Origin: Gordius albopunctatus
Lineage: Eukaryota
Direction: 5' to 3'
Length of the DNA: 64,000 nt
Assembly (NCBI GenBank): GCA_964276515.1
Contig: OZ193910.1
Span: 372,001 to 436,000, forward strand
Under the pieces are notes generated by a model. The model saw only the letters and a list, made by a program, of their open reading frames with translations, searched no databases and was not told the DNA's origin. Of the stretch, positions 11,461 through 42,500 are shown piece after piece. Within the stretch, counting starts at the first letter, position 1. The number at the start of each line of letters is the position of its first letter. Both the position numbers and the translations under genes were made by a program.

Positions 11461-11556
11461 AATATATGCTATCCTTTATATATTATGCAATATACTATTG
11501 AGTATTTATTAATTTAAACATATATTTAATATATATAATTATTATAATTTATATTT

Positions 11557-11603
11557 TAACACTACCTACGACGGTCCCAAGTCCGTGTGCAAAAAGTGGA
11601 GGG
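11557..11603 (+). ncRNA. Twister ribozyme core (P1-less) at the RTE 5' end
   Basis: T^AA-CACT(P2)-AC(T2)..ACGG(P4)-TCCCAAGT(L4)-CCGT(P4)..AGTG(P2)-GAGGG; colinear with the canonical rice twister sequence as I recall it. Confidence 0.85.
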
Positions 11604-12826
11604 TTGGCGTCAGGTCGGAAACCGGCTCTAAAAATCAACTCCAAAATTTATGATAGTTTCAAACGAGATTTTACAAGAAAAGGCTAGGGCGTCCTCCACA
11701 AACTACGCGCACTGCATACCCTGCCCGTGCAATGTGAAAAATACACTAGGGTTACTGCCCAACTCACAACGAAGGCGGTTAAGGAAACTAGTTGTGGAAA
11801 GAATGCGAATTACGTGCTGGAATGTGGGAACGTTGACGGGGAAGAGCATCGAGGTCGCACAGATGTTAAAAAGAAGAAAGGTACACATCGCCTGCTTACA
11901 AGAGACGAGGTGGAACGGAACGAAAGCTCGGGAATTAGGAGAAGGATACAAGCTTTTCTACAGTGGGTCACCAAATCGTAGAAACGGGGTCGGTATCGTT
12001 CTAAGCGAATCGTTCAAGGACAAGGTGGTGGAAGTCAAACGTTGTTCCGACAGGCTAATGTGGGTGAAGATTGCGGATCAATGGGGTCTCCTAACCGTTA
12101 TGTGCGCGTATGCTCCCCAAATTGGGTGTTCGGAATCAGAGAAAGACATATTCTTCGAATCATTGGAAAAGGAAATACAAGGAATCCGACAGGAAGAAAG
12201 GCTAATTATTGGGGCCGAGTTCAACGCTCACGTAGGGAAAGATCGCCTCGGGTATGAACGCAATCATGGAGGCTATGGGCATGGTCTGAAGAACAAAGAA
12301 GGGGAAAAACTTCTCCAAGTATCCCAAGCATATGACATGGCGATCGTTAACACCTATTTTCAAAAGCGCGAAGATCATATTGTTACCTATAGAAGTGGGA
12401 AGCATTTTAGTCAAATCGACTATTTGCTTATACGGCGAAAGGACTTATGGAGTATCAAAGATTGCAAAGTAATACCGGGAGAAGAAATCGCCAAGCAACA
12501 TCGTCCCCTTGTTATGGATCTTGACAGAAGAGTATTTCCCGAAAGAAGAAAGGTATATGAACCTCGAATTCGATACGAAAGGCTAAAGGATACGTCGACG
12601 AACGAAGAATACCATCAAAAAGCCTCCTCACTCTTGGGTGCAAGGAAGTTGCAAAGGGACGTAGACGAAGATTGGGAAACGCTATCTAAGGACATTAAGG
12701 AAACAGCGATTCGTGTTCTAGGACAGACCAAAGGAGGCAAAGCTATGAATAGGGAACTATGGTGGTGGGATCAATCGGTTAAAGATTTCATCGAAATAAA
12801 GAAAAATCTATATAGACGGTGGCATA

Positions 12827-13102
12827 TGTAGTGTAGCCGCATTCAAGGTTGCAATTTGAATACACGCGTTTTTCCTATACTTGAGCGCGGTCACAGATAT
12901 TTGAATATACGCTTAGCCATTTGAATATACCTTAGTTTACACCGTACTTTATCTCTTATTTGATTACTACTTTTATATATGTCCTTCGCTATGTGTATAA
13001 AAAGCCTTATCCACCTAATAAAAGAGTCTCTGTTTCTTGATGTAGTCTCTTGGTTTAGAATCTGAGTTTAGCGTTATCTCCCTTGGCCACCACTTCGTTA
13101 CA
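12827..13102 (+). repeat. 5' LTR
   Basis: Direct repeat of 16974-17249 with 3 mismatches counted by eye. Confidence 0.97.
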
Positions 13103-13168
13103 TTTGGCGACGAGGATAAACACTTCTACACCTAATATACTCTGTTATTGTTCTAGTTATCAATTAAG

Positions 13169-16100
13169 ATGACGGAGAAGAAGCCGGACATTGGGTCAAA
13201 ATCCGAATTAGATTCTGGATATTCTCTTGATAGGGTTAGAGATATACCATCTTATGATGCAACTAAAAATATTGATGATTATCTTTATCATGTAGAATTA
13301 ATTTTTCGCCTTAGAAATATTACGGGAGATTTTAGAAAAATAGTTTTATTGTCGTACATCGTAAGTTTACATTTGAGTAAAATTAGAAGTCAAATATATC
13401 CTAAGGATGTGGATAGAGTTACTTATGAGGAAATTAAAGAATCTTTGATAAGGATATATTCAGATAAAAATTCAATTTACCATTACAGAGAAATATTATT
13501 TAAATCGTAGAGAACTAATGAGAGTATAATAGATTTTTCAATAAAACTCAAAAATATTATAAATCGGTGCAAATATAATTTACCCACTGATGAAATTTTA
13601 CGTGATATATTTATCCTATGGGTCAATTTACCTAGGTTAAATATTGAATTAAGGGCCAAATACCCCTTAGGTAACATAAAGTTTGATGAAACGGTAAATC
13701 TTGCGCTGGCTCTTTCATCAATTGAAGGTGAAACGTCCAACGAATTGGAGATAAATAAAGTACGACAGGATAAAACATTCGGGATTAGGAATAATAATTC
13801 TAATACTTTTTCTAAAACCGTTCCTAATTTTAGCACTTTTAGGAACAGGAAAGTAGTATGTTATAGGTGTGGGAGAGCGAATCATCTTGCCCGAGACTGC
13901 TGGTCGAATCCTCCTTTTCCGCAAAGAAACATATCCGCTTTAAAAAACAAAGACGAGATAACGAAAGCGGAGATTGATGTTTTGATCAATGAGAGACCAT
14001 ATACGTTTCAATTCCATACGGGTGCCGCTTGCACAGTTATAGATGAACCAACATGGCGTAGCATAGGTAAGCCACCCCTAACACCGGGTTCGGAGATATA
14101 TGGTTATGGCAAAACCAAAATTCAAACTTTTGGGAAATGCAATGCCAAGGTAGAAGTTAAAAAAAATATCACATGTCATAGATGCACATGTTATTAAAGG
14201 TAAAGGAAATTTGATTTTCGGCATCCCTCATATCATTAAATATAAATTATCACTTCCACCAATCATTAAATTAAATGTTATTTCCGATGAAAAAAAATAT
14301 TTAACGGAAGACGATATTTTTAAACAGTTCCCAACAGTTTTTAGTCAAAAATTGGGTAAAGTTAAAGACCTTAAAGTCGTGATTGAGGTGGAAAAAACAG
14401 CATGTCCCATAAGCTACACGGCGAGGCGGGTACCATTTACCATGCGTCAAGCTATCGAAAAAGAATTGAAACGTTTAGAAAGTGAAGGGGTTATTAGAAA
14501 AATCGATCCAACAATAACTCCAATCAAATGGGCAACACCTACGGTTAACATAAGGAAGAAATCCGGTGACGTCCGTATATGTGGTGATTTCAGAGTGACA
14601 TTAAATAAATATCTATCAAAGGACAACGATCTTCTCCCAACGTTCAAGGACGTCGCGAGTGAAATATCGGGTGGTATTTACCGTCGAATATTTTCGATCA
14701 TAGACTTAAAAGATGTTTTTTTGCAATTACAAGTTTCGGAGGAAAGTTCAAAATTGTTGAACATAGCCACACATATAGGGTATTTTCAATATTTAAGGCT
14801 TCCTTTTGGTTTAACAACAGCGCCAATAATCTTTCACCGTTATATGAGAAACTTGCTCAAAGGCTTAAAAGGCGTAAGTGTTTTTATGGATGATATTATA
14901 ATAAGTGGGAAAAACAAGGAAGACCATAATAAAAATTTACTAGAAACACTAAATTTAATTAGAAAGGCAGGATTAACAACGTCCCTAAACAAATTTCAAT
15001 TGTTCAAAAAATCTGTTAAATTTTTGGGTCATACGATAGATGCAAGTGGCATTCACCATAGTGAAGATAAGATGGAGTCGATTAAAAAATTTAAAGAACC
15101 AACTAATCGCAAAGAATTAAAATCATTCCTGGGTCTAGTTAACTACCTTGAAAGTTTTATTCCAAATTTGCAATCTAAAAGTTCAGTTTTGTATAAATTA
15201 ACATCTACTAAAGTCAAATGGAATTGGACTATAACAGAAAAACAAGCATTTAACAATATAAAAAACTTAATCTCAACAGATAAAACAATAATTCCATATC
15301 AAAATAATATACCTATTATAATCTCATGCGACGCTTCTGAAACAGGTTTAGGAGCAGTTATCTCACATAAATTTTTTAATGGACATGAAAGACCGATTGC
15401 TTTCGCCTCTCAGGCACTTAGTCCAGCTGAACGTAATTACTCGGTTATTGACCGAGAAGCTGCCGCAATCATGTTTGCTATACAAAAATTTCACGAATAC
15501 ATTTACGGTAGGAAATTTACATTAATTACAGACCACTGCCCATTGGAAAGGATTTTCGGTCCTAATAGGGATTTGAGTAAAGTAACAAATAATCGTTTAG
15601 TCAGATGGGCGACGAAACTTATGCACTATAATTTTGATATTAAATATATGCCGGGATCATGGAATAAATGTGCCGACGCTTTATCAAGATTAATGCCAGT
15701 TTCAAATTATTCTGATCCGGAAGAGGAGTTTGAAGATAAACTAATTAAATTAAATCTAATTGATGAATTAACAATTAATAGAAAAACTTTGATTAATGAA
15801 ACTTTAAAAGACGATATTCTTAAAGAAGTTGTTAAATTATTTCAAAATAATTGGCAAGGAGATATTTCTAATGATAAAGTTAAAAAATATTTGGATTTGA
15901 AGAATTATATATCATTGGAAGATAACCTACTATATTTCAATGATAGAATTATCATTCCTTCTGGTTTAAAGTCACAAATTTTAAAAATACTAATTAATGG
16001 GCACCCTGGGATTGGAGCGATGAAATCATCAGCGAGATACTATGTTTATTGGACCAACATGGACAATGATATAGAGGAATATGTAAATGGTTGTAATAAT

Positions 16101-16961
16101 TGCCAAGAAGGTAGGCCTTTAACGAAAGAAGTACCAATGTCCATCTGGAATATTCCCAACAAACCATGGGAAAGGATTCACATTGATTTGGCGGGGCCAA
16201 TATCAAATAATTATTGGTTGGTTTGTATTGATGCCCTCACTAAATGGCCGGAAGTTATGGTTATAAAACAAATCAACACGTCTAACATTATTTATAATTT
16301 ACGAGTTTTATTCTGCAGATTTGGGCTTCCTCGTTATATAGTTAGTGACAATGGTCCTCAATTCACATCATATGAATTTACAACTTTCTGCAAAATAAAT
16401 GGAATACGACATTTTCGAGGCGCACCGTACCACCCTAGAACAAACGGTCTAGCAGAAATATATATGCGGACCATAAAGAGCAAATTTTTTGCGGGGAGGA
16501 GATAAGGCCTGAACGATCGTGAAAATTTATTACAAGTTTTATTTAATATGCGAACGACGGTAAATACCACCACGGGTATTAGTCCGGGGGAAGGTATGTT
16601 CAATAGAAGACTTCGAACAACTCTTGATCAATTAAAATGGACACGAAAGGAGAAAATCAGTGATTCCGTTTGGAAACAAAAGTATTACAGGAACCGGGGC
16701 CTGGAATACCGTGATTTTGCTCCAAATCAAAAAGTTTGGGTAAAAAATGACAGATCTCCAGGGTGGAGAGAAGGTCAAGTCCTTACAAAAAACAGTTACT
16801 TGACCTATCTAGTACAACTGGGTGACAAAACTCAAATAAAACACCCCGACCATATGAGAGCAGTCAAACGACCAGATCCAGCAGCGATTTCAGAAGACAA
16901 TATACTTCCTTATAAAAGAGTATCAGTGCCAACTGTCAGATATCCTCAAGGTTCCGCTTAA
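13169..16961 (+). pseudogene. Gypsy gag-pol (CCHC knuckle, protease, RT, RNase H, integrase), disrupted
   Basis: CYRCGRANHLARDC; protease HTGA (catalytic D replaced); LPFGL..FMDD; CDAS..DREA..TDH; GHPG..C..C and SDNGPQF..YHPRTNGLAE. Stops at 13508 and 16503; frameshift in the A-run at ~14160. Confidence 0.92.
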
Positions 16962-16973
16962 TGGGAGGAGAAG

Positions 16974-17249
16974 TGTAGTGTAGCAGCATTCAAGGTTGCA
17001 ATTTGAATACACGCGTTTTTCCTATACTTGAGCGCGGTCACAGATATTTGAATATACGCTTAGCCATTTGAATATACCTTAGTTTACACCGTACTTTATC
17101 TCTTATTTGATTACTACTTTTATATATGTCCTTCGCTATGTGTATAAAAAGCCTTATCCACCTAATAAAACAGTCACTGTTTCTTGATGTAGTCTCTTGG
17201 TTTAGAATCTGAGTTTAGCGTTATCTCCCTTGGCCACCACTTCGTTACA
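16974..17249 (+). repeat. 3' LTR
   Basis: Direct repeat of 12827-13102. Confidence 0.97.
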
Positions 17250-19519
17250 GCATAAATCAAAAAAGTCGGAGGATTATCAAGAGTACAGGGACGCAAAGAG
17301 GGCCGCAAAAAAGGCCGTTGCAAAAGCGAAGAATGCTGCGTACACCGAGATGGCAAACAAACTGGATCCTAAAGGGGGCGATAGGCTTATGTACAAATTG
17401 GCCAAGATAAGGGAGAAGAAAAGTCGAGATGTCGGAGTTCTTAAAATAGTCAAAATCGAGAAGGGTCAAACCTTATTCAAGCCGAAGGAAGTGATGGAAA
17501 GGTGGAAATGATATTTTAAGAAACTTATGAATATTGCAAATGACAAGGATTCCCTTCCCGAAATCGAGCCAAATATAAGTATGGTCGAACTCTTTCAGAA
17601 GGATGAAGTTAGGACACAAATGAACAAGATGCAAAAAGGAAAAGCAAATGGCCCAGATGGAATACCTATGGAAACATTGCTCGGATGTCGTGAAGAAGGA
17701 GTCACCACCATGACGAACCTCCTTAACAAGATATAGGTAGAAGAGCGAATCCCTAATCAATGGAGAGCAAGCACGATTATACCCTTATTCAAAGGAAAAG
17801 GAGACCCTCAGGACTGCGGTAATTACAGAGGTATCAAGCTAACTTGCCACTCCTTGAAGCTTTTGGAAAGGATCTTAGTAACAAGGCTGAAAAACGAGGT
17901 GGAAATATCGGCTAATCAATTCGGATTCGTGGCCGGCAAATCCACAATCGACCCAATCTTCGCCCTAAGACAAATGATGGATAAGTATGGTGAAAAGAGG
18001 AAAGACCTACATATGGTTTTTATCGACTTGGAGAAAGCTTATGACACGGTCCCCCGCGATTTAATATGGTGGTGCCTGAGGAAACAAAATATCCCTGACG
18101 CATATATACGGCTTATGAAAAATATCTATGAATCCTCGAACTCTTGCGTTAGGACGACAGTTGGAGACTCTAAACCTTTTCTGGTTAATATTGGATTACA
18201 TCAAGGCTCTGCTTTAAGTCCCTTTTTATTTAATATAATTATAGACACGATAACGAGGGACTTTCAAAAGCCATCGCCATGGTGTATGCTATATGCCGAT
18301 GATATAGTACTATGCGAGGAAACAAGGGAGAAGGTATTCGAAGAAGCAGAAAAGTGGTCAAAGCGCTTAGCTGGATATGGTTTAAAGGTCAATGATCGAA
18401 AAACGGTATACATGGAAATGAACGGTACAAGCACCCCATCGCTGGATGACCACCTAAAATACCCAAAAGTAGACAGGTTTAATTACCTCGGCTCTATGCT
18501 ACATCAAGAGGGAGGTTGCGCAACTGAAATCAATGCCCGGATTCAAAAAGGATGGCTTAAATGGCAAAGTGTATCCGGTGTAATGTGCGACAAGAAAATG
18601 CCAATATGGTTGAAGAGCAAAGCTTACAAATCCATCGTAAGACCGGTGTTACTCTATGGAAGTGAAACATGGGCATTAAACACCACGGAAGGAAAGTTAT
18701 TACAAGCCACGGAGATGAGAATGATACGGTGGAGCTTGGGGTATACTAAGCTCGACCATATGACGAATGACTTTCTCATGACAAAAATGGGTATTCAACC
18801 TATGGCGGACATGATTAACGAAAATCGGCTTAGGTGGTATGGGCATATACTAAGAAGGGACCCGGATGACGTAAATCGAAAAGTGCTAGACATGAAAATA
18901 CCGGGGAAGAGAGGAAGAAGACGACCCCGTGTCACGTGGAAAAGGCAAGTCGATAAAGTTATGGAAACTAAAGAGATTCGTCAAGACATGGCACTAACCC
19001 GGTCAAGATGGAAGAGACTCATCAAAACAAACCCCACCAATGTGGAACCAAATAACTGATAAAGAAGAAGAAGAAGATTATAATTTATATTTTATATTAT
19101 TTTATTTATTTACGATTTTGTATCTAGTTTGGAAATGTGTTATTTATTATGTCCATTAGTGATTATGGGTCCGAATCAAATTTGATTATAATGATTTCTC
19201 TCATAAATTTAAATACGTGCAATTTAAAGTATAATGCTGAATATAATTGATGATGGTAACAATAGACTTAGTCTATTAAGAAGCTTTAGCCAGGGTTAAT
19301 AAAGTGTCTTAATTTTCTCAATTATGTAACTAAGTCAACCATAAGCGAACGTATTATTAAGTCTATTTATAGTTGACAAAAACAGTGAATTTGATACAAA
19401 TGTTATAATTTGCTAGAACAATCACATTTAATTTTCTATACTTCAAATTTATTTGTAGTCTTTGTTTGCACTTTCTATAGAAAATTTCATCTTTATGAAT
19501 TAATTCATATCTTTATATT

Positions 19520-19790: not shown

Positions 19791-19857
19791 TAATTGTGTG
19801 TCAAATTTTCCTCCATTTTGAAGTGCCACTGGTATATTTTAACCATGTAATTTTGCC

Positions 19858-23534: not shown

Positions 23535-24135
23535 TTATTTCCAAAATCGATAGAAAGTATCATAATAATAATCAGCCACAGAAGACATACTATAGAATTC
23601 TTCTGGACTAGGGGCTAGATAATAATCATCAGGAAGTGTATTAAAAAGTTTTCTATCATAGAGATGACCAGTTTTCCAACCTTCAATATCCTTCATAATT
23701 TTTTCCTCTTCAATAAGCTTTTGCTTTAAAAATCTTAAGAATCTAAATTTCAATATAAAAATTTATGAGGCAACAATATAATAGCAAATAAATAATGATA
23801 TTTGTGGCACTAACACTCTGTCATGCTCTGCAGATATTAATGGCATTAATCCAACTTTGACATCATTATTGTCCATTACAACTTTGCTATTAATATCAAA
23901 TTATTAGGAATAGCAAATTAGGCTCACCTCCTAAACTCTCTATTCTTTTTAAACATATATAATCCAGCAGCTTGGCTTATGATATAAACACCGAATAATG
24001 CCCAGCCTATTTTATCACATATAAATTATTTTTAAAAAACTTACCGCTATACTTTTTAACACGCGGTTGACGGGAAAATTGTATTAAACGATAGCCACCT
24101 TCAGGAGGCAAGTCCTGCTTGTAGGCTATAACCAT
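23535..24135 (-). CDS. NDUFA13: NADH dehydrogenase 1 alpha subcomplex subunit 13 (GRIM-19), 4 exons, 149 aa
   Basis: Exons 24135-24045, 24006-23928, 23886-23815 and 23742-23535 with GT-AG introns give MVIAYKQDLPPEGGY..TM..KKNREFR..LMPLISAEHDR..EEEKIMKDIEGWKTG. Confidence 0.93.
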
Positions 24136-24219: not shown

Positions 24220-24788
24220 TAGTGATGGGAAAACGCTTAGCACTAGCGCGCTTAGCATCTCCCCGCTGATGGGAATAGCCTATTAAATAAGATATGTCTA
24301 CTAGCACATAGTCACTTTAAAAGCTATAAGCTATAGGATATGGGAGGTTTGAGGCGCTAAAGCTATGGGAGATGGGAGGTTTGAGGCGCTAAAGCTATAG
24401 CCGATTGCACTTAAATGCGCTAGAGAGAATAATAATTTCAATGAAAACAATAGAGTATAATATGAACTTGTGCGTACTCACCCTTGTTATTGTAATTTAA
24501 TATCTAATAAACAATTAAAAAAATTATTCTCAATGTTAGCGCCGTGCTATAGGTCAAGCGCATTTAAGTACAATCGGGTATAGCTTTAGCGCCTCAAACC
24601 TCCCATCTCCTATAGCTCATAGTACCTCAAACCTCCCATCTCCCATAGCTTTAGCGCCTCAAATTTTAAACCACTTATCTCCTTTAGCTTATAACACTTA
24701 AAGTGACTATGTGCTAGTAGACATAGCGGCATGTGGTTGCTATGTGCTATAGCTTTAGCTCCTTAAAAATGCTATTTCCCCATCACTA
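24220..24788. mobile_element. hAT MITE with internal inverted and 31-bp tandem repeats
   Basis: TIR TAGTGATGGG / CCCATCACTA; perfect 8-bp TSD ATTATACT (24212-24219 / 24789-24796). Confidence 0.92.
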
Positions 24789-25187
24789 ATTATACTTGTG
24801 AGGTTTTATAACTAAAAAGTCATAGTCAAACCTTCAAGCATTATACAGAATTAAGCAATGATCTTAAACATACGTCCAATTGTATAATATCCTATTTAAA
24901 ATCAAAAATCATCGTCAGGACAATGCGTCAAAAATGACAAATATAAAAGTATAATTTTACTAATTACGAGTATTATTGACCAGAACCAGATCAACATATC
25001 TATAACAGCTAAATTTGCGGAAAGAGCTTCTGTAATATTGCTTAAACCAACTGCTATCTTAAATATTTCAGAAAACAGGGGACATACTAATATTATTTTG
25101 ATAATAAACGATTACACTACAAATATTTGAAAAACCTAGGAATTTGGTTGTTGTATTTAATGCTAGATTTTTGCAAAATATTCTTCT

Positions 25188-25518
25188 ATACTAAGCTCGA
25201 CCATATGACGAATGACTTTCTCATGACAAAAATGGGTATTCAACCTATGGCGGACATGATTAACGAAAATCGGCTAAGGTGGTATGGGCATATACTAAGA
25301 AAGGACCCGGATGACGTAAATCGAAAAGTGCTAGACATGAAAATACCGGGGAAGATAGGAAGAGGACGACCCCGTGTCACGTGGAAAAGGCAAGTCGATA
25401 AAGTTATGGAAACTAAAGAGATTCGTCAAGACATGGCACTAACCCGGTCAAGATGGAAGAGACTCATCAAAACAAACCCCACAAATGTGGGACCAAATAA
25501 CTGATAAAGAAGAAGAAG
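25188..25518 (+). mobile_element. 5'-truncated RTE copy
   Basis: Near-identical to 18744-19076; (GAA)n tail; TSD ATTCTTCT (25180-25187 / 25519-25526). Confidence 0.95.
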
Positions 25519-26073
25519 ATTCTTCTTTGTCAAAATATCTTAAAAATATACTTTAAAATGAATGATTAGATAACATGTTTACATTCGGAACTCACGCAAT
25601 TAAAAACTTACCGAAGCAAACACATTAAAATTCTGTTTATAAATATTTTATTTTAACTTTTCATATCTCATGTCTCACCTTTCTTATTGAGCACCACTTA
25701 AAAACTTTAGCTTCGCATTTTTTATTGATACCCCGTTTGTCATGTCGAAGATGCGTGGGTATAAGCTATAAGAAACCAGCACTGCTTTCTCGTTAGTTGG
25801 TATATCATTTCATCTATCAAATCAATTGTAATATACGCTAGAGTTTCATCAAACTAGATAAAGCTTTCCATTTGTTCTTAAGCGATGAAAATTAGCCTAG
25901 GGATCTATGGATTACACGACAACATATTTTTACAAAGACGATTATATGCATTTGGTAATTTACACATGAGGTTGAATTTTAATAAAACATCATTATCGAG
26001 TGTAATCATTTTGTTCCTACAATAAGCGATTTAGTATTTATTATAGATTTACAGTAAAGCATATTTATTTTAA

Positions 26074-30067: not shown

Positions 30068-33000
30068 ATGGGTGGAACAGTCAGTGCTGGCAAAAGCAAT
30101 GACGAGTTGGTAGAAAATCTTTGCAAAGCTAATTTGATTAAAAAACCAGAAATTGAAAGAGCTTTCCGCCTAGTAGATCGAGCATATTTTTTCCCTAAAT
30201 TATATGAAGAAATCGCTTACAAGGATGTAGCTTGGAAACATTGTATATATCACATTTCTGCTCCATGTATATATGCAGAAGTTTTAAATGCCCTAGAAAT
30301 TCATCATAATCATTCTTTTTTAAATATAGGAAGTGGTAGTGGCTATCTATCTACATTAGTTGGCATTTTACTAGGTAATCAAATTATTTATTTTTAAGGG
30401 TAATTAATATAGTTCTCAATTTTTATGCTTGTTATGTTGTTTCTAGGCATTAATGGGGTTAATAATGGTATAGAAATATATCCAAAACTTGTAGAATTTT
30501 CAATGAAAAATGTTGAAACGTTTTGTAATAATATATTGAACAGACAATATTCATATGGCTCAGTAAACCACATAAAGGAAGATTCAAAATCAATTGATGT
30601 TCATCAGCACCAAAAAATAGTTACAGACATTGCAGCCAAACAGCATTATTTGCCAACATGTTATCATGGAAATACAGTAATGCAAGATTCTATAACAATA
30701 GATAATTGGGATTCAGACTTGTTAATTCACTTTTGTTACCCAAAATTCATTACAGCTGACATAATTAATGTACTCAATATGATAAATTTGACACCTAAAG
30801 AACAAGATTCAACTATGTTACTCAATTATGACAGAATATATTGTGGGGCATCTTTAACACCAGGCACTCATTGGGTTGAAAAAATGAAGCAGCTTTTAAA
30901 TATTGATGGAATTTTGGTTTTACCCCTTAATGATCAGGTAATTCAAGTTTGATATTAAAATATTATATTTGAAACTAAATTACCACAAAACTAAATATTA
31001 AATGTCTATAATGTGTTGCTCTTAAAGTATTTTATTTGTTTGAAGAATTCAATAATAGGCCAATTATTATTTTGCTCAATAATTACACTGGTCAACAAAT
31101 AATATACTTGTGAAATTAACCTGCGAACTATTTGCAGATGCTATAGAGTTTTTCACTGTGAACACAAATATGTTTTTAGTTTTTTCCCTATACGTCTAGT
31201 TTTTTAAATATTCGCTGTCAAAGTTGCCATAAAAGCGATTTTAGCGTTTTTCAAACGTCAATAATTTGCAAATTAGTCGGTAAAAATGTTGTTTAATAGA
31301 TTTAATTCGTAGATATATGGGAGAGGAACGTATTAACAATTTTTGGATCCTAGCACATTTACTTTTTAAATTCGATACAAAATTAACTATCCCTATCTTT
31401 TACATTCACAAATTAGAGCAGACTGAGGGCGCCCTCCCTTCTCTTCAACACTAGGAATTAAGTGCGTGTTGTTGTTTTGGTAATAGTAGTAGTAGAGTAG
31501 ATAAACAACAACATAAACAACAACACGCACTTAATTCCTAAAAGTGCTAGGATAAAAAAATTGTTAATACATTCCTATCCCATATATCTACGAATTAAAT
31601 CTAGACTAATTTGCAAGTTGTTTGAAAAACGCTAAAATCGGGTTTTATCAACTTTGACAGCGAATATCTAAAAAAACTTGAAGTATAGGGGAAAAACTAA
31701 AAAGATATTTGTGTTCACAGTGAAAAACTCTACCAGAATCTGCAAACAGTTTGCCGGTTAATTTTTCTTGTTGAACCGTGTTATTAATCATTTTTAAAGC
31801 AATTTATTTTTACAAAATATTAATATTATTAAATTTAAAAAACTTAGTTGATTAAAATAAGGAGAAACGGAATTTCTGATTGGTCAAATGAAACAATTAT
31901 GGCTGCATCATTTGCACCACTTTTACTTCCACAAGGGCAGGAAAATAATTGTGATTCAATAATTTTGAAAAGTGTACAAACATTTTTCTCCACAAGATTT
32001 CCACCAAAATTATATGATACTTGCAAATATGCCACAAGAAAGTTTATATGGAATTTGTTAAGATCAAGATGCACAAACCAAGTGAGTTTTATTAAGACTA
32101 TATATATTTTAAAAATTATTGCAAATTACCAAGAAAGTTTATTTTAAGATACCTTTGAATTTTATTTTTCCAAAATATAAGTTTTTGGCGTTCTCTATGC
32201 CCCGTCACTAGGAAAGTTTTTTTTAATTTTCACTCAAAATTAGTATAGAAATTGATACTCTTGTGGGGCTATTTTTAATAATTTTTGTAATGATATTAGT
32301 GTTGTAAAAAGGGCTGGGTTTTGCTTGGTCTGTTTATGTTTAGTCAACCTCTAGATTTGGTCGCAACTTGAAAAAGAGACCAGAAGCGATCGTTAGTCTT
32401 AGCTAAACATCAAGAGGCTAAAGGTTTTTTGGCCTGTGTTTACAACACTAAATCATCATATGTTATCAATACCTTAATTTATGATTGCTTTCTCAATTCT
32501 ATATGTAATATATTTGAAAAAAGTCTATTAGCCCTAAAATCTCTATTGTGGTCTGCATGCAAAAACATTTATATATATGAATTAAAATTATATGCTGCAG
32601 CAGGCTCTCAGCGAGGAGGTCTTTTTAAATTGGTAACAAACTGAAAAAAGTACCTGGCTTATCTTTAATTCTTCTAATTTCTGTGAAATAATTTTATTGT
32701 AAATCAATATTTTTATATATTTTTAACCTTCTTTTAATAAAAAACATTTGCTTTTTAAAATTTGTATTAGCTATTAAACATAGCATAACATCGATTATAA
32801 GTATTCATTGGGATAGTGAATTGCACATATTTTTAAACTACTCTTCCAAATGAATGATTTATTGCACAAACCTAAAAAAGGCTTTAATAAACTTATATTT
32901 AAAAGTTGGGAAGTATTCCTATATTGGTGGTGTTAAGTTTTTGAACATTTTAATAATGCGGTTCGATATACCCCATAAGCTTGCTTAGGATTGAGATTTT

Positions 33001-33256
33001 CATAACTCCTTTCGAGCGTTAACCTTAAAGCCCTACAACTTTACCTAACCGTTCGTTATTTAGCGCTCTTTTCTAATTTGTTTGTGTTAAAATGCAGAAC
33101 CTGGAGTCCGAGGAACACGGAATTAATGAATCAATCGATGGTTGTTCATGTAATACTTTAAGATGGTATTATACGCGAAAATATATACTCGATCAAATGA
33201 TGAATTGCCTTCCCCTTCCCAAATCAATTCGTCAAAATCTTAAGTTTTCATCTTAA
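30068..33256 (+). CDS. PCMTD1: Protein-L-isoaspartate O-methyltransferase domain-containing protein (PCMTD1/2-like), 4 exons, ~396 aa
   Basis: Exons 30068-30374, 30447-30937, 31848-32081 and 33098-33256. Motifs MGGTVSAGKSNDELVENL, FLNIGSGSGYLS, YDRIYCGA, BC-box-like PPKLYDTCKYATR and Cul-box LPLPKSIRQNL. Confidence 0.92.
31086..31780. mobile_element. Tc1/mariner-like fold-back MITE in PCMTD intron 2
   Basis: TA|CACTGGTCAACAA...TTGTTGAACCGTG termini; long inverted arms (e.g. TTCACTGTGAACACAAATAT / ATATTTGTGTTCACAGTGAA; TAGGAATTAAGTGCGTGTTGTTG / CAACAACACGCACTTAATTCCTA). Confidence 0.8.
32297..32450. mobile_element. Small hAT-type MITE in PCMTD intron 3 (relatives at ~80-272 and ~2400-2552)
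   Basis: TIR TAGTGTTGTAAA / TTTACAACACTA. Confidence 0.7.
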
Positions 33257-34578
33257 GAACAGATGATCCATTTCGCAAAAATGTTTTCCAATTACTCAAT
33301 ATACCTCCTCCTATTTATATTGTAAGCATTCCCCTGGCTCCGAAAACCTTTTTGTCACCTCAATGCTCTTTGTTTACTATTATCATCACCCAAAACAAAC
33401 ATAGACTACTCAACAATTGTATTTCCTTTACCTTATAAAACAGTCGCGATTGAACCAAATTTTTATAGATATGAAATAGCAATATTTATCCTTCAAATCT
33501 ATTTATTATTATTTACAATTACACATATAATGCGGGCATGTATTGTTCACGTCATTTATTTATATTTATATAAGTGATTGGATTCTTTTCAGAATAACGT
33601 TGCCTATTTATGTATTATTTTAAAATATTTACTTAAAACTATTTTCATTTATGACAATAATGGTTTAAATAAAGTTTAATAAATTTCCAAATTTTATTAC
33701 TGATTTACAACTGTTCTTATAAAAAAAATTAAAACGAACGCTATAGTACTTAAAGGATATATATATTGATTCGAGTGCTCCCAGTTTTTTAAAATTAGAC
33801 AATATTAGAATTCTAATTTTTTTAATCCTATCTCCGTGCCCCTTGGCATAGGAATTAGGCAATGATATATTTAATATATGAAATATTTGGTTTGAGGCTT
33901 AACAAAAAGCAGACAACAGGGGCGGGCCGGCCCTTTGGCCAAGTCGAAAGATTGAGTTTTTAATTATTTCCTTATAAATTGGGACAGTAGTCATTTAGCT
34001 AAACTCATTAAGATAATTATTTCATCATTTAATATATGCTTTGCACCTTTCTAATTTTACCTATAAAAAATATCATTTAATCTGAGATTTCTTTTTGAGA
34101 ATTATCAAATAACTACGCACTTAATCTAGTAAAAATGCTCGTTAAATAGAAAAAGAAAAATATTCATTTGCTCGGATTTTTATTAAATTGTAAAAAACTA
34201 ATATTATGTTAGAAATAAACATAAATAATAAGATTTAAAAATTAATAGGCAAATCTTTGTGAATTAGTAAGCATGTAATTATTGCAAGAAAGGAGTGTAT
34301 ATAACTATAGGTTTTTAATGTCACATTTGCAATAGAGTAATAAAATGTATTTCTAGATAACTATTATATTCATATCATTTTTTATGTACATCAAACATAA
34401 TTTGTAAATTTTTTCTAATATTATAAGATTCAATTAGCTTTATATTCAAATTTTATGACAGTAACATTCATAAAATATTTTTGGATGAGCTTTAGTTTGT
34501 CTAAAGCCTCATGTTAAATATTTACCAAATTTGGGTTTGGCAAAAAAAAATATTCTAAACTTATTCCTTAAACACATA

Positions 34579-34625
34579 TAACACTACCAACGACGGTCCC
34601 AAGTCCGTGTGAAAAAAGTGGAGGG
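34579..34625 (+). ncRNA. Twister ribozyme core (P1-less) at the RTE 5' end
   Basis: T^AACACTACCAACGACGGTCCCAAGTCCGTGTGAAAAAAGTGGAGGG; P2, P4, T1 and T2 pairings are all possible. Confidence 0.85.
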
Positions 34626-37600
34626 TTGGCGTCAGGTCGGAAGCCGGCTGTAAAAAGCAACTCCAAACACCATGGCAGCTTCAAATACGAACTTATACCA
34701 GAATGCTAGGGCGTCCTCCCCAAACGACGCGCATTGCATCATCCACCCGTGCAATGTGAAAAGTATACAAGGGTCACCGCCTCACTCACAACGTAGGCGG
34801 TTAAGGAACCTAGTTGCCGAACGGACAAGAGTGGCTAGCTGGAATGTTGGCACGCTGACGGGGAAGAGCATCGAGGTTGCGCAGATGCTAAAAAGACGAA
34901 GGATACACATAGCGTGTCTACAAGAAACACGGTGGCATGGAACAAAAGCCAGGGAGCTAGGAGATGGTTACAAGCTGTGCTACTCGGGTTCCCCATCACG
35001 GAAGAACGGGGTCGGTATAGTGCTTAGCGATTCCTTTAAGGACAAGGTAGTCGAAGTCAAACGATGCTCGGATAGATTGATGTGCATAAAGCTGGCGGAT
35101 CAAGGCGGCCTTGTCAATGTTATTTGTGCGTATTCGCCCCAGGTTGGATGTTCCGAAAACGAGAAGGACGAATTCTATGAGAAGCTCGAAGAAGAAATAC
35201 GCTACGTGAAGCCTGACGAGAATCTCATCATCGGAGCAGACTTTAATGGGCACGTTGGGAAAGAAAGGGGCGTGTACGAACGAAATCACGGCGGGCATGG
35301 CTATGGAGTGAAAAATAAAGAGGGAGAGAAGTTACTACAGATGGCGCAAGCTTACGATATGGCCATTGTGAATACCTTCTTTCAGAAACGTACCGAACAT
35401 ATAGCGACGTACAGTAGTGGAAATCACCTTACACAGGTCGACTACATATTAGTGAAGCGCATAAATTTGTGGCAAGTTAAAGATTGCAAGGTTATACCGG
35501 GGGAAGAAATCGCCAAACAACATCGGCCAGTTGTCCTCGATATAGCAAGAAAGATTTTTCCCGTAAGGAGAAAAGTCTACACACCAAGGACAAAGTGCGA
35601 AAAGCTTAAGGATGATCATGCAAATGAAATGTTTCACACTCGAGCAACTCCGCTCTTGAAGGTTGCAGGCTTGGAGGGCGACATTAACAAAAGGTGGGGC
35701 ACCGTTGCAAATGTTCTAAAGGAAACGGCCTTACAAATATTGGGACGAACTAAGGGCGGCAGAGCTCACAAGCGTGAACTATGGTGGTGGAATGACTCGG
35801 TCAAAGAGGTTATAGAAGAAAAGAAGACGTTGTACCTACGATGGTACAAAACGAAGAAAGGAGAAGACTACGAGGCATATCGTGAAGCGAAACGCAAAGC
35901 TAAGATAGCGGTCGCGATAGCGAAGAACAACGCTTACACCGAGATGGCAAACAAGCTCGATACCAAGGGCGGCGACATAGTCATGTATAAACTCGCAAAG
36001 ATCAGGGAGAAAAAAAGTCGAGATGTCGGGACACTTAAAGTCATTAAAAGCGAAGAGGGACGAACGTTGTGCAAACCGAAGGAAGTCATCAAAAGATGGA
36101 AAGATTATTTCCAAAATATGATGAACAAAACAAATGATAGAAGACCGCTAGAGAGGGTGGAACCGAACTCGAACTTGGTTTTACCATTTCAGGCTTATGA
36201 AATAGGAGCACAACTAACGAAGATGCGGAAAGGGAAAGCGCTAGGTCCCGATGATCTACCGATCGAAGCATGGCTTGGGTGCAAAGGAGAAGGAATCGAC
36301 ATAATGACAGGCCTATTTAACGCTATGCTGTATGAGAGTCGTATCCCTGACCAATGGAGGGAAAGTACGATCATACCCATATACAAAGGTAAAGGAGACA
36401 CGCAGGAATGTGGCAACTTTAGAGGTATCAAGTTGACCTGCCACTCACTAAAACTACTAGAAAGGGTGCTAGTGAAAAGGCTCAATGACGAAGTTTGTCT
36501 CTCGCCCAATCAGTTTGGATTTGTGGCCGGTAAATCAACGATGGACCCAATCTTTGCGTTGAAGCAGACGATGGAAAAATATGGCGACATAAGAAAGAAA
36601 TTACACATGGTCTTCATCGATTTAGAAAAGGCCTACGATACGGTTCCGAGAGACTTAATATGGTGGTCCCTTAGAGCCAGAAATATACCCGAAGGATATG
36701 TTCGACTTATCAAGGAAATGTATAATGGCGCGGTTGCATCTGTTAGGACTACCGTAGGAGTAACGAAACCCTTCCGAATAATGATCGGACTACATCAAGG
36801 ATCAGCGTTAAGCCCATTCTTGTTTAATCTAATTATGGATACAATAACAAAGGACTTGCACAAGCCAGCCCCTTGGACTATGCTATATGCCGACGATATT
36901 GTCCTATGCGATGAAACAAGAGAAGGGGTTTTTCATCAGGCGAAAAAATGGTCAGAACGTTTCTCGGAATTCGGGTTAAAGGTCAGCGAGAAGAAAACGG
37001 TTTACATGCAAACGATGGGCGGTAGTCCGCAAATGCACAAAATTGAAGGTCCAAGGTACACGGAGGTTGATAAGTTCACATATCTTGGCTCGCTATTACA
37101 TCAAGAGGGAGGATGTACCGCCGAAGTCCATTCTCGGATCAAGAAAGCATGGCTCAAGTGGCGCAGCATCTCCGGTGTCATGTGTGACAAAAAGATACCA
37201 ATTTGGTTGAAAAGCAAGGCGTACAAAACCATCGTGCGTCCGGTCTTGCTTTACGGGAGCGAAACATGGGCTGTAACCAGCGCGGAGGAGAAACTCTTGC
37301 AAGTCACGGAAATGAGAATGGTGCGATGGAGCTTAGGCTACACCAAGCTGGATCGCATGACGAACGAATCCTTGATGGCAAAGATGGGTATACAAGCGAC
37401 GAAGAACCTCTTAAGAGAAAATCGACTGCGGTGGTACGGCCATGTATTACGAAGAGACGAAGACGATGTCACACGCCGAACGCTGGAGATGGACGTGCCT
37501 GGAAGAAGAGGAAGGGGCAGACCACGTGCCACCTGGAAACGACTGGTCGAAAAGGATATGGACGTCAAACAGATGGAAATTGGGATGGCATTCACACGAC

Positions 37601-37664
37601 TCAGATGGAAGAGGCTGCTGAAAACGTACCCCACGTCTGTGGGATTTTCAACACGATAAAGAAG
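34581..37664 (+). mobile_element. Intact full-length RTE LINE
   Basis: Perfect 18-19 bp TSD ATTCCTTAAACACATATA(A) (34563-34580 / 37665-37682); short GAAG tail; uninterrupted ORF. Confidence 0.97.
34672..37659 (+). CDS. RTE ORF: AP endonuclease + reverse transcriptase, 995 aa
   Basis: WNVGTL, CLQETRW, GADFN, DYIL, QHRPV (APE); FIDLEKAYD, GLHQGSALSP, YADD, YLG (RT); RLRWYGH..RGRGRP. Confidence 0.97.
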   Translation: MAASNTNLYQNARASSPNDAHCIIHPCNVKSIQGSPPHSQRRRLRNLVAERTRVASWNVGTLTGKSIEVAQMLKRRRIHIACLQETRWHGTKARELGDGYKLCYSGSPSRKNGVGIVLSDSFKDKVVEVKRCSDRLMCIKLADQGGLVNVICAYSPQVGCSENEKDEFYEKLEEEIRYVKPDENLIIGADFNGHVGKERGVYERNHGGHGYGVKNKEGEKLLQMAQAYDMAIVNTFFQKRTEHIATYSSGNHLTQVDYILVKRINLWQVKDCKVIPGEEIAKQHRPVVLDIARKIFPVRRKVYTPRTKCEKLKDDHANEMFHTRATPLLKVAGLEGDINKRWGTVANVLKETALQILGRTKGGRAHKRELWWWNDSVKEVIEEKKTLYLRWYKTKKGEDYEAYREAKRKAKIAVAIAKNNAYTEMANKLDTKGGDIVMYKLAKIREKKSRDVGTLKVIKSEEGRTLCKPKEVIKRWKDYFQNMMNKTNDRRPLERVEPNSNLVLPFQAYEIGAQLTKMRKGKALGPDDLPIEAWLGCKGEGIDIMTGLFNAMLYESRIPDQWRESTIIPIYKGKGDTQECGNFRGIKLTCHSLKLLERVLVKRLNDEVCLSPNQFGFVAGKSTMDPIFALKQTMEKYGDIRKKLHMVFIDLEKAYDTVPRDLIWWSLRARNIPEGYVRLIKEMYNGAVASVRTTVGVTKPFRIMIGLHQGSALSPFLFNLIMDTITKDLHKPAPWTMLYADDIVLCDETREGVFHQAKKWSERFSEFGLKVSEKKTVYMQTMGGSPQMHKIEGPRYTEVDKFTYLGSLLHQEGGCTAEVHSRIKKAWLKWRSISGVMCDKKIPIWLKSKAYKTIVRPVLLYGSETWAVTSAEEKLLQVTEMRMVRWSLGYTKLDRMTNESLMAKMGIQATKNLLRENRLRWYGHVLRRDEDDVTRRTLEMDVPGRRGRGRPRATWKRLVEKDMDVKQMEIGMAFTRLRWKRLLKTYPTSVGFSTR

Positions 37665-37692
37665 ATTCCTTAAACACATATAAATTAAAATA

Positions 37693-39295
37693 CAGTGGCG
37701 AAGCTAGAGGGGCCGGCCCCCCCCCCCCCAAGAGCAAAAACCGGGTCCATGGGCCCCCAAAGCGAAAAATTAAGAAACAATATAAAGATTATTATTATTG
37801 TTTCTGAATAAAAGTTTTAATTATAATATTACAAATAAAAATAAAGATGCTGTATAAGACAATAAAGGGTGAAAAATTTTATTATTTTGATTAAAATAAT
37901 TTTAACTATCCCAATAATTTCATGTTCACGCGAAAGATCGTTCTCATTGCTAAAACGGATTAAAACATATCTTCGTTCCACGATTGGACAAGATAGTTTA
38001 TCTTCCTTAGCTTTATTGAGCTTCGAAGATGACTTTACAAATGTTATTCCCCCGGATGATATTATAAATTCGTTTGCAACATAAAGTAAAAGGCGTAATG
38101 ATCTACTATTAAAGGACTAATTTTAATATTTAATGAAAAATTATCTGGGTTTTTAAACTTGTTTTAAACTCTTTAACACTTTCAAATTATATTAAAATAT
38201 TATTAAATTTACGAAAATTCCATCCTGTATTCAATTTTATTGTTTAACATACCTTGACTATTTTTATATACCACATGAACATATAAAGCCAATAGTTTTC
38301 CAAAAAATAGTTTGTACATCATTTTTTCCCCTTATCATAAGTTTGATAAATTAATATTAATGACCAATTCCTAAATTTTATACAATTGTTAACGCATCAA
38401 AACTTTCGAGGGATAAAAATCCTAAAAAAAATCATTATGTTTTTTTTTAAACGCTAAGTTGTTCTGTGAATCTCACATCTTTAATTTCATCTAAAATTAT
38501 TAAATAAAATTTTGATTCATTTAATTTTGACAGAATATTTTTAAGGTTCATTTAGCCGTTAAATTTATTAGTTCATTTTAATTTTAGGTAGTGTAAAGGG
38601 GGGGGGTTGTGCAAATATATCTATAATATCAACGGGCAAGAACTTCTAAATTCTAATTTTAATTTCATAATTAACTTTTTTTATATTTTATGTTATAATT
38701 GCGCCTTTTGAGGATCTAACTTAAAAAAAGGCTTGAATGTTCTCATTGTTTCCTGATATAAAGGCTGCCTGATAATGCTGCCAATATTGCATATGTAAAA
38801 TTATAATTTTTAATATATGGCCATGATTTTTTGGGGTTGTGGCAATAAAATGTTTGTATAAAAACTTTGTTGTATAGTTTTTTTTAACTATTTGCATTAT
38901 TTTTCCCCGTTCCACTTTGTACATTTACAATTCATTTATACAAAACTTATTATACCATGTGAAATTTTCTATATTGTTTAAACTACATCACTTCACTTTG
39001 TTTTATTTAAGAATAAATTTTATTTATTTTATGCCCTATAAACATGAGGGGACATATTAGTGTGATGTTAATAAAAAAATACACTAAATAGTAACGGGAT
39101 TTTAAGTTTGTCCAAGGTTTATGAGAGAAAAAATTTTCAATTGGATTTGAACCATGGTCGTATTTGGGTTTTGTACCGGGGGGGGGCAAAACATAAATAT
39201 TTTTATTCTTAAGGGTGTGGGTAGGAATTTACTTTTGCCCCCCCTATATTTGACCAGCTAAGCCCCCCAAGGCGAAGAGGCTAGCTAAGCCACTG
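37693..39295 (+). mobile_element. Non-autonomous hAT element with transposase C-terminal remnant
   Basis: TIR CAGTGGCGAAGCTAG / CTAGCTAAGCCACTG; TSD TTAAAATA / TTAAATTA; LTIPIISCSRERSFSLLKRIKTYLRST at 37869-38084. Confidence 0.85.
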
Positions 39296-39518: not shown

Positions 39519-42500
39519 ATGCCTCCAACAATTCAGACGTCTAACGAAAGAATCGATAGAAAAAGCAGAGGTGGAACCGATAAAAGGTTAATAGATTTTT
39601 AATTTTTTAAGTTTAGGTGTGTATATATAGATCTGATTTATTGGTTAAAGTAAAATATACTAATGCTTTACCAGATGTTCCTTTTGAACCAAAATTTCTA
39701 AAGTATCCATTCGATTCAAAAAGGTATCAATACAATTAACACATTTATATACAAATTAAGGTTTGTAAAGTATTGTCCAACCTCTTTGGAAAAAAATTAT
39801 AAATTTGATATTATCACTGAACATGACTTAGGTGTTCACATAGATTTAATTGACCCTGACACTTATAAAATAGATAAAAATGGTAAATTACTTGTCAAAT
39901 ATATACATTAGTTAAATTAGCTAATTTAGATCCTGCTGATGAAAAATTACTTGAGGATGATTCAATTGTTCCCGTGGATAATAAACGTGCAACTAGACAT
40001 GCCAAAGCTGTCCCATGGCTACGACGTACTGAATATATTTCAACTGAATATAATAGATATACGCAGTCATCTGAAAAGGTTGAAAGCAAGTAAGAAATTA
40101 TCAGTTATTTTGACATAAAAAACTATGAGGCATATAAATTATTGTAATTATTTTTAAAAAATTTAGTTATTTAATACAATGCTTAAAAATATAATAGGAT
40201 TGGTTACAGAATTAAAAACATAATTAAAGATGATGATGTGTATAAAGATCGTGAAAGTCAAGTTAAAGCCATTGATCAAAGTTTTGAAGCTGTTAAAGAA
40301 AAAGTTAGTCCATTTTATTTTTATCAAATTCCAAGTAAATTTTATTATGCCATTTTGAGATTAGTATTTAACTAAAATAAATAATTTATTCATAAAAATA
40401 TAGGCTACAGTACATTACAGTAAACCCAATGTGCATGCTGTGGAAGAATTACCACTTTATCCAGATTTCAAATTGTGGAGACACCCATGTGCTCAAGTTA
40501 TATTTGATTCCGATCCTTCTCCCGGAGGTCAATTGCCAAAAAACATCCAAGAAGAACTTATGTCCCAAGCAATGATTAGGTACAAAGTTTTGCAAAGTCA
40601 TAAATTATATTAAGTTCTTAAAATAACTTGCGAACATTAGACTTTGTTTTTATTTTTCATTCTTATTTCTTCTATAAATTTTGCAACTGCATTAATTTGC
40701 TCTGACTTTAAATGTGCACCCCCAAAATAGGACTAGGTTATTTTATGACTTTATTACCTCCTTACAAATTTTTATTAGTTGATGGAAATGGCAAGTTCTG
40801 TGTTTATGATTTCTCAATTTACATAGCTTGATGTTACAGAAGAGTCTGAAAATGCAATCTATTTTTTTTGCATTTTGTGATTATTTTTTTTAACTCTGAA
40901 AGGGTGGAATATTTTTAAAAGGGATATTTTTAATAAATCCTATTTTAAGGAATTTACAAATTACTTCTTATATTTCATATATCAATAGGCAAAATAAAAT
41001 TTATACCCTATTTGAAAAAATAAAATGTAAAATACGAGATCTCAATCAAAATTATATTACTCTTTCTTTGAATATGAAATTTTTAAACTTGCTAAGCAGT
41101 CGATAATTTGGTTAAAAAAATTGATTTGTATTTTCATCTTGATAAAATGCATGTAAAATTTCAAATGTAACCATTAAGGGGTATGATGGATGAAAGTGGT
41201 AATCAATTTGTAGCCTATTTTTTGCCGACTGAAGACACATTGGAACAATTGAAAAAGGATTTTATCGAAGATATGGATTACACAGAAAGCCAGAAGTAAT
41301 ATTTTATCGGAAGAATCTCATTTTAAATATTTTAATAAATATGCTCAAAATTTGCAGAAATAATCATTTTAAAGTAAATTTTTATCAACTTAGCCGCTAG
41401 CTCAAGTATAGAGTAATTTAAAGGAGAAATGTTATAGCAATGTTAATATCTAATTTTGCAAACAGCGAAATTCTTCAAAGCTAAACAACAATGAATTTTA
41501 ACTTTTTTATAGTTTTGCGAAAGGAAATTTTAGTACAAAAATACCTAACAAATGAAATAAAAACATTCAGATATTGCAAGCGAAGTATATTCACAAAAAT
41601 TAATACCGATTTTCTATTTTATAAAAAAAAGATTTGAGATTATCATGGAATAGCAAAAAAAATTTCCCCTATTCTAACTTTTTTATATTAGTTACACATA
41701 CAAAATGGCCCGTGAATACAATTGGAATGTTAAAAACAAGCTGTCCAAAGGCTACGAGGAGAACTACTTTTTCGTGCTCCGACCCGAAGGAGCATTTTAC
41801 AACGAATTGGAAACGAGGTAAAGTGCTTCCGCGCAATACCAAACGCCATCTTGCTTTTTTTGTTTTTACTAGACAATAATTTATAAGCAAAACTATAAGA
41901 ATAAATATCACAGCTAGATTAAAATAAATCTATCTTATCATGTGTTTTGCCCGATAAAAGTTATAATTATTAAAAAATAGTTACATTGGTGGATTATCAA
42001 TTAAGGGTTATTGGGCCCACCATCGTAAATTATATGATCAGTCTTAATATAATAAAGCAAATCATTATATTTTTTATTAATTCTATATCTAATTTTGTTT
42101 ATTTTGGCTCTCTTAGGGTTCGGTTGAGTAAGCGTAGATTGATGCAGGGCCAACAAAGTCAAGTAAATCGTACCAAATTAGCGGTGAAGTATAGACCCTT
42201 CAACGAAAACGAGATTCGTTCTCAGGTTTTATCATTCATACTTAATTATCTGTAATTATATAATTTTATTAATATTTTGTTTTTGAGAAAATTAATACGA
42301 TACTATTTTGCTGATATAAATATGAGAATATTAACTATTATTAATACCGTCCTTCTGCTCAAAATCCTCACAATTTTCTGGGGGAATTTAAGCGGGATCT
42401 ATTAATATCGAATTATTTAGAGAGGGCAGCAGTCAAAGTTTAATTTTTCGGGGGAAAAACTACTTTGGGTGGAAACTCTTTATCTTTCATAGTTTTAGTT

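What the first reader, a model, noticed from the sequence alone, without database searches (positions are those of the whole stretch)
34579..34625. Intact RTE retrotransposon begins at the cleavage site of a twister ribozyme
Seen: the element's first bases read T^AA CACT AC CAACG ACGG TCCCAAGT CCGT GTGAAAAA AGTG GAGGG. Established: this is colinear with the rice twister as I recall it (U^AA CACU GC CAAUG CCGG UCCCAAGC CCGG AUAAA AGUG GAGGG). Two paired changes are compensatory: P4 C-G to A-U, and pseudoknot T2 G-C to A-U. The catalytic A after the cut and the G after P2 are kept. The TSD-defined 5' boundary falls within one base of the U^A cut. Inference: the element may lack its own promoter and cut its 5' end out of host read-through transcripts. 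Twister-RTE coupling has been reported in Schistosoma, so the principle is known. This copy has an intact ORF and a perfect TSD, so it is a good test case.
Basis: partly seen in the sequence, partly recalled or inferred. Interest (0 to 1): 0.9.

Follow-up and report, generated by a model that had tools for sequence, protein, structure and literature searches.

The report
Twister ribozyme heading an RTE retrotransposon
A full-length jumping gene begins exactly where a built-in "twister" RNA motif is predicted to cut itself, which likely lets it free its RNA from host transcripts; the same arrangement is already published for a blood-fluke element, so this is a clean further example, not a new principle.

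Summary
Confirmed. A twister-type motif (Rfam twister-P1, E 4e-8, but 42.8 bits against a 67.2 cut-off) starts at 34580. It heads a 3.1-kb LINE with an open 995-aa APE-RT frame and a perfect 19-nt target-site duplication. P2, P4, both pseudoknots and both catalytic bases are present. P1 is broken because its 5' strand is host DNA.

A second family in the window (11558) has the same head at its own boundary. The two heads match at 48 of 50 nt, while four-fold sites match at 88 of 242. In three sequencing runs, 25-45 contigs per position leave the element at 34579 or 34580 into unrelated flanks. Twister-headed relatives also turned up beside fish-like and plant-like proteins.

Likely mechanism: host read-through, self-cleavage at U^A, cap-free translation, target-primed insertion. 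This copy lies about 1.3 kb behind a same-strand host gene. Cleavage and transcription were not tested.

The mechanism is published for Perere-3 (PMC8501958) and asserted for the RTE superfamily (PMC7761336). This scan has already found it on short RTE derivatives in other genomes.

The parts
34563..34581 (+). Target-site duplication, 5' copy (19 nt). Its last two A's are also the first two bases after the predicted cut; it supplies U-1 and the 5' strand of P1.
   Evidence: sequence
34579..34580 (+). Predicted cleavage step U^A; A34580 corresponds to the general-acid adenine
   Evidence: Rfam alignment; contig loose ends at 34579 and 34580; role of A7 and G45 from PMC5408937 passages
34580..34629 (+). 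Twister core without P3/P5: P2 34582-85/34617-20, T2 34586-87/34603-04, P4 34593-96/34605-08, L4 34597-34604, general-base G34621, T1 guanines 34623-25, orphan P1 3' strand 34626-29
34635..34649 (+). Predicted hairpin in the 5' UTR, kept in family B (34630-34658: 26 of 29 nt identical)
   Evidence: folding z-scores not significant
34672..37659 (+). Single ORF, 995 aa from the first in-frame ATG: APE endonuclease (PF03372) plus reverse transcriptase (PF00078)
37657..37664 (+). Stop codon and very short AAG-repeat tail; no separate 3' UTR
37665..37683 (+). Target-site duplication, 3' copy
11558..19076 (+). Sister family B: same twister at its 5' boundary (Rfam 11553-11607, 37.9 bits, E 1.1e-4), 18-nt duplication 11541-11558 / 19077-19094, about 67% amino-acid identity to A, two in-frame stops, split by an LTR element at 12827-17249
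30068..33256 (+). Upstream host gene, PCMTD1-like, same strand; candidate source of read-through RNA. The last exon 33077-33256 is assigned by eye only; AATAAA at 33668 and 33678.
   Evidence: last exon has no Pfam hit

Best explanation
This is a full-length RTE-type LINE whose first 50 bases form a twister ribozyme core that is predicted to cut the element's RNA out of host read-through transcripts at U34579^A34580. Shown: the motif, its position at the family's 5' boundary, its conservation, the single APE-RT frame and the target-site duplication. Inferred steps: (1) RNA polymerase II runs into the element from flanking DNA, here likely past the end of the PCMTD1-like gene. (2) P2, P4 and the two pseudoknots fold, and the RNA cuts itself, leaving a 5'-OH AAC start; P1 would not be needed. 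(3) The uncapped RNA is translated from AUG 34672, as reporter data show for Perere-3. (4) The endonuclease nicks at TT|A sites, the RT copies to the cut end, and the new flank supplies a fresh N-1 and P1 5' strand, so any transcribed copy could re-launch.
For: Rfam hit with all core pairs. Loose contig ends before 34579 / 34580: X1 29/43, X4 33/44, X6 25/45, with flank agreement 0.45-0.49, meaning unrelated flanks. Summed depth in X1 rises from 472 upstream to over 1e6 at the bin holding 34580. Family B starts at the same step with its own duplication. The A and B heads match at 48 of 50 nt, against about 70% in the ORF and 88 of 242 four-fold sites. The same head lies upstream of RTE-type frames in 5 of 9 pattern-found loci. 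Same-strand host gene ends about 1.3 kb upstream. Perere-3 variants cleave in vitro and in yeast, and cleavage drives reporter translation (PMC8501958). Imperfect P1 and any N-1 are tolerated in high-throughput assays (PMC11662667).
Against: No cleavage assay and no RNA reads. The score is 24 bits under Rfam's cut-off, and P1 has 2 of 4 pairs. A plain fold of 34540-34700 does not give the twister as its minimum-energy structure (pseudoknots cannot be modelled, z +1.1). An internal promoter starting at the same base would also give a sharp boundary. High head identity between A and B could reflect a recent 5'-end swap rather than selection. Only 24 of 533 loose-end rows were shown, so the full spread of starts is unseen; X2 also showed 3 starts at 34590. 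X1 may be the source sample, X4 and X6 are one study, and the 80% setting pools families A, B and derivatives. Related RTEs lack the twister (element C; L001, L003), so it is not required by the clade.
Confidence: 0.82

Rival explanations
1. The element has an internal Pol II promoter that starts at or just before 34580. The twister fold is kept mainly as a 5'-end structure (protection, translation or RT binding), with cleavage incidental.
For: Sharp 5' ends are also expected from internal promoters (general LINE knowledge). P1 is broken. No promoter test was possible; the only scan available is for bacterial promoters.
Against: The boundary falls on the chemical cut site in two families and many insertions. 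Catalytic A and G and both pseudoknots are kept with compensatory changes. Flanks upstream share nothing. Perere-3 variants cleave.
Confidence: 0.12
2. The mechanism is right for the family, but this particular copy is an inactive passenger (not transcribed, weak ribozyme or damaged protein). Not exclusive of the best explanation.
For: Private substitutions near the 5' end, two non-synonymous. P1 2 of 4 pairs.
Against: 3-kb open frame, catalytic motifs present, perfect duplication. Same-strand gene just upstream. P1 defects are tolerated.
Confidence: 0.35
3. The twister likeness is chance or a decayed relic with no role.
For: Below Rfam's gathering score. My loose descriptor gives 8 window hits against a shuffle mean of 2.3, so it is not specific by itself.
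Against: E 4e-8. Two copies in the window, both at element boundaries. 48 of 50 conserved while synonymous sites are nearly saturated.
Confidence: 0.02

Closest known systems
T-variant twister ribozymes at the 5' end of Perere-3 (RTE clade), Schistosoma mansoni; Liu et al. 2021, PMC8501958 (read: abstract, introduction, results, discussion; not methods part 2 or supplements)
   Same: Twister at the 5' end of a single-ORF APE-RT element; duplication next to the cut; host flank supplies the P1 5' strand; the P1 3' strand reads UUGG in both; cut leaves 5'-AA.
   Different: Different RTE lineage: 28% identity over 111 APE columns to the Perere-3-like locus L033. The ribozyme here has no P3 (5 nt in its place), a longer A-rich J4/2, and A-U pairs in T2 and P4. 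UTR 92 nt against about 112-147 nt. AAG tail rather than GTAA.
Twister at the 5' end of RTE-superfamily retrotransposons, one sentence in a 2020 review, PMC7761336 (passages read; cited there as 'in preparation')
   Same: States that truncated but catalytically competent twisters are conserved at RTE 5' ends and process the RNA from upstream transcripts.
   Different: No data, families or hosts given in the passage; my searches found no follow-up paper.
Rfam RF03160 twister-P1; the Oryza sativa P1-type twister lacking P3 and P5 (PMC5408937, passages read)
   Same: Same core, same P3-less build, catalytic A and G in place.
   Different: P1 not formed; score below the curated cut-off. The rice sequence itself was not retrieved.
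HDV-like ribozymes at the 5' ends of R2, RTE, Ingi and other LINEs (Eickbush 2010; Ruminski 2011; seen only as cited in PMC8501958, PMC5786205, PMC7761336)
   Same: Self-cleavage from a co-transcript defines the 5' end and is linked to translation.
   Different: Unrelated ribozyme fold; R2 is site-specific, this element is not.

Membership tests
Twister ribozyme, canonical type P1 (RF03160) | Reaches Rfam gathering score | tested here: not met
   42.8 bits against 67.2; so not filed as a curated member
Twister ribozyme, canonical type P1 (RF03160) | P1 stem closed | tested here: not met
   2 of 4 pairs in A, 1 of 4 in B; reported dispensable
T-variant twister (Liu 2021: core kept, up to four P1 mismatches, 2A type) | N^AA at the cut, with A after the cut and G after P2 | tested here: met
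   U34579, A34580, A34581, G34621
T-variant twister (Liu 2021: core kept, up to four P1 mismatches, 2A type) | P2, P4, pseudoknots T1 and T2, loop L4 | tested here: met
   P2 4/4, P4 4/4, T2 2/2, L4 UCCCAAGU, GGG for T1
T-variant twister (Liu 2021: core kept, up to four P1 mismatches, 2A type) | Target-site duplication adjacent to the cut | tested here: met
   for A and B
T-variant twister (Liu 2021: core kept, up to four P1 mismatches, 2A type) | Self-cleavage at the predicted bond | not testable with these tools
   needs an in vitro assay
RTE-clade LINE | One ORF with APE then RT, no ORF1, about 3 kb | tested here: met
RTE-clade LINE | Short 3' end with tandem repeats and variable-length duplication | tested here: met
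   AAG tail in A and B, 19 and 18 nt duplications
RTE-clade LINE | RT phylogeny with labelled RTE references | tested here: inconclusive
   Homologues at 40-46% in fish, nematodes, moths and plants carry no clade label. Tree was on the APE domain only, 25 rows. Atlas name 'craniofacial development protein 2-like'; its link to RTE is recalled.
Perere-3 family | High sequence identity to Perere-3 | tested here: not met
   28% to Perere-3-like L033 over 111 columns; L033 assigned by eye from Table 1 of PMC8501958

The most novel reading that the evidence does not exclude
The 5' head of RTE LINEs is a swappable expression module. The twister heads RTE lineages across animals and plants, far beyond Perere-3. 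Sister families in one genome replace it with a tRNA-like promoter head (element C). The endonuclease's liking for T|A steps rebuilds the U of the U^AA cut site at each new insertion, coupling target choice to ribozyme re-launch.
Probability: 0.3. Interest if true: 0.55.

Novelty: new member of a known kind. Interest (0 to 1): 0.3.

Why it matters
It gives a compact, P3-less natural twister on a near-intact LINE, in a lineage distant from Perere-3, with a second family and a twister-free sister family in the same 64 kb. That is a ready test set for whether promoter-less LINEs rely on self-cleavage and how an uncapped 5'-OH RNA is translated. It also supplies data for a claim that my searches found in print only as one sentence: twisters head RTE elements generally. 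Standard Rfam annotation misses such heads because P1 is host-derived.

Tried and rejected
No whole genome is held, so copies could not be counted or aligned; contig ends were used instead. No RNA holder listed; says nothing on expression. Viral contigs: 0 pattern matches, 0 relatives. Rfam on 20 of 31 metagenome loci: 0 hits; most lack a 5' end. L001 and L003 again gave no ribozyme at E up to 10, and their true 5' ends are not established. Idea that the orphan GGGUUG strand re-pairs downstream after cleavage: it appears in the single-sequence fold (z +0.3), but RNAalifold on 10 sequences gave no consensus pair; not supported. Excess of T at -1: share of starts at 34579 is 0.40, 0.43 and 0.36 against 0.28 expected, p 0.02, 0.005 and 0.11; weak, and confounded by aligner end effects and non-independent runs. 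Element C as a Pol III-adapted LINE: T4 runs 5 against a shuffle mean of 5.5, no depletion; ARAGORN finds no tRNA. Bacterial promoter scan is not applicable. The supplement of PMC11662667 could not be read; it may hold a tested sequence close to this one. Supplements of PMC8501958 were not opened and list T-variants from other organisms. Literature searches found no data paper on twister-RTE coupling beyond Perere-3; the library lacks most subscription papers. The host taxon was not determined.

Full report
Observation. The sequence at 34579-34625 is as reported. Rfam's default scan of the window finds nothing. A permissive scan gives twister-P1 (RF03160) at 34575-34629, 42.8 bits, E 4.2e-8 on 601 nt and E 4.4e-6 on all 64 kb; the gathering score is 67.2. 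Counting pairs directly gives P2 4 of 4, P4 4 of 4, T2 2 of 2, loop L4 UCCCAAGU, then GA and GGG for the general base and T1. P3 is replaced by 5 nt, as in the rice ribozyme (PMC5408937, passages). P1 has 2 of 4 pairs, because its 5' strand is host DNA.

The element. A perfect 19-nt direct repeat lies at 34563-34581 and 37665-37683. It overlaps the first two A's after the predicted cut, so the boundary is uncertain by two bases from this copy alone. Between the repeats is one open frame, 995 aa from ATG 34672, with APE endonuclease and RT domains and their motifs. It ends in a stop codon and a short AAG tail. The closest database proteins are 40-46% identical; named ones come from fish, nematodes, moths and plants. 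The anatomy is that of an RTE-clade LINE; no labelled RTE reference was in my tree, so clade membership by phylogeny is inconclusive. At four positions among the rows shown, 97% or more of run X1's depth reads another base, two changing a residue. The copy is open but not proven competent.

The boundary is a family property. Contigs of four runs were laid on 34450-35050 at 80% likeness. In X1 the summed depth is 472 over the upstream flank and above 1e6 from the bin holding 34580; the tool warns that this is not a copy number. Loose ends before 34579 / 34580 number 29/43 (X1), 33/44 (X4) and 25/45 (X6), with flank agreement of 0.45-0.49, which means many unrelated insertion sites. A start at 34579 is what a flank ending in T gives. 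X2 showed 1 at 34579 and 3 at 34590. Limits: 24 of 533 rows were shown, X1 holds this exact flank and may be the source, X4 and X6 are one study, and families are pooled.

A replicate in the window. A second twister lies at 11553-11607. It heads family B, 11558-19076, with its own 18-nt duplication ending on the first A after the cut. B is about 67% identical to A in protein, has two stops, and is split by an LTR element. The heads match at 48 of 50 nt, against about 70% in the ORF and 88 of 242 four-fold sites. This is what selection on the ribozyme predicts, though a recent swap of 5' ends could also give it.

Breadth. A pattern scan of bacterial assemblies gave 9 loci, presumably eukaryotic contaminant contigs (inference). 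Rfam calls a twister in 6 of 9, and 5 of 9 have an RTE-type frame downstream on the same strand. Only L037, L038 and L040 keep the full 5' half; L033, L036 and L039 are clipped. The pattern demanded the RTE-like 3' strand, so this is a biased sample. On an APE tree of 25 rows, L037 groups with two fish proteins (100/99). L038 and L039 fall in a group that includes the plant proteins and L002-L004 (97/94). L033, Perere-3-like by eye against Table 1 of PMC8501958, is distant at 28%. Against universality: L001 and L003 show no twister, and element C in this window has another head.

Host context. A PCMTD1-like gene lies on the same strand from 30068, with a weakly matched third exon near 31848. 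A likely last exon ends at 33256, assigned by eye from its resemblance to homologue C-termini, with AATAAA at 33668 and 33678. The element starts about 0.9 kb after these signals and about 1.3 kb after the stop. Paf1 begins at 39519. Read-through into this copy is therefore plausible, not shown.

Mechanism. Most likely (0.82), host Pol II read-through carries the element, the core folds without needing P1, and the RNA cuts at U34579^A34580. The uncapped RNA is translated from AUG 34672, and target-primed reverse transcription copies it to the cut end. All three full-length RTE-type insertions in the window have TT|A at the start of their duplication. The new flank supplies N-1 and the P1 5' strand. 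Support from print: Perere-3 variants cleave in vitro and in yeast, and cleavage drives reporter translation (PMC8501958). P1 defects, any base at -1 and variable L2 lengths are tolerated in high-throughput tests (PMC11662667, section 32 read). Rivals are an internal promoter with a structural role for the fold (0.12), chance (0.02), and, not exclusively, that this copy is inactive (0.35).

Novelty. Liu et al. 2021 describe this arrangement in full for Perere-3. A 2020 review states that truncated but active twisters are conserved at the 5' ends of RTE-superfamily elements, as work in preparation (PMC7761336). Eight searches found no data paper beyond Perere-3. Earlier notes of this scan report twister-headed short RTE derivatives in other genomes; none matched this sequence. 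What is added here is a distant lineage, a minimal P3-less ribozyme on a near-intact element, and population-level boundary evidence. Verdict: real, new member of a known kind, interest 0.3.

Noticed in passing
window 54660-52067, minus strand: Third full-length RTE-type element (C), decayed, with a perfect 17-nt duplication (54677-54661 / 52066-52050). It has no twister; it starts with a tRNA-like head (A-box and B-box motifs by eye; ARAGORN negative). The head is multi-copy in run X1, with 17 contigs leaving at 54659 into unrelated flanks; more contigs leave at 54558-54567 with other heads. No depletion of T4 runs. [quoted passage not shown]
   Followed up: partly
window 54503-54566: A 60-nt piece of element C's 5' UTR has the highest depth, and 77-117 contigs (X4, X1) join it to sequence resembling C's 3' end: likely an abundant bipartite SINE-like derivative.
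   Followed up: no
window 34597-34638: Depth over the twister is 2-10 times that over the ORF start, and many contigs skip from 34609-34667 to 34700-34885: likely internally deleted twister-headed derivatives.
   Followed up: no
window 12827-17249: Gypsy-like LTR retrotransposon inside element B: 276-nt LTRs 99% identical, 5-nt duplication, zinc knuckle, RT, RNase H and integrase domains, frames interrupted.
   Followed up: partly
window 34563, 11541, 54677: All three RTE-type insertions have TT|A at the first base of the duplication; A and B also have a T|A step at the ribozyme cut.
   Followed up: partly
window 19857-20476, 25187-25519, 8446-8748: 3'-end fragments of RTE-type elements (two close to family B), showing 5'-truncated copies also occur.
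   Followed up: no
window 23538-23762 (-), 39519-42252 (+), 37866-38084, 48489-48704, 50816-51271, 56521-58638 (-): Host exons of GRIM-19 and Paf1, hAT transposase remnants, and an RT frame of another LINE type.
   Followed up: no
window 24293-24727 and 63438-63944: Two related long inverted-repeat elements (MITE-like); their sub-threshold MIR4240 matches are likely just hairpin hits.
   Followed up: no
L001:1-420: RTE relative with a long GC-rich 5' region and the same downstream UTR motifs as elements A-C but no Rfam ribozyme hit; may carry an unmodelled head.
   Followed up: partly
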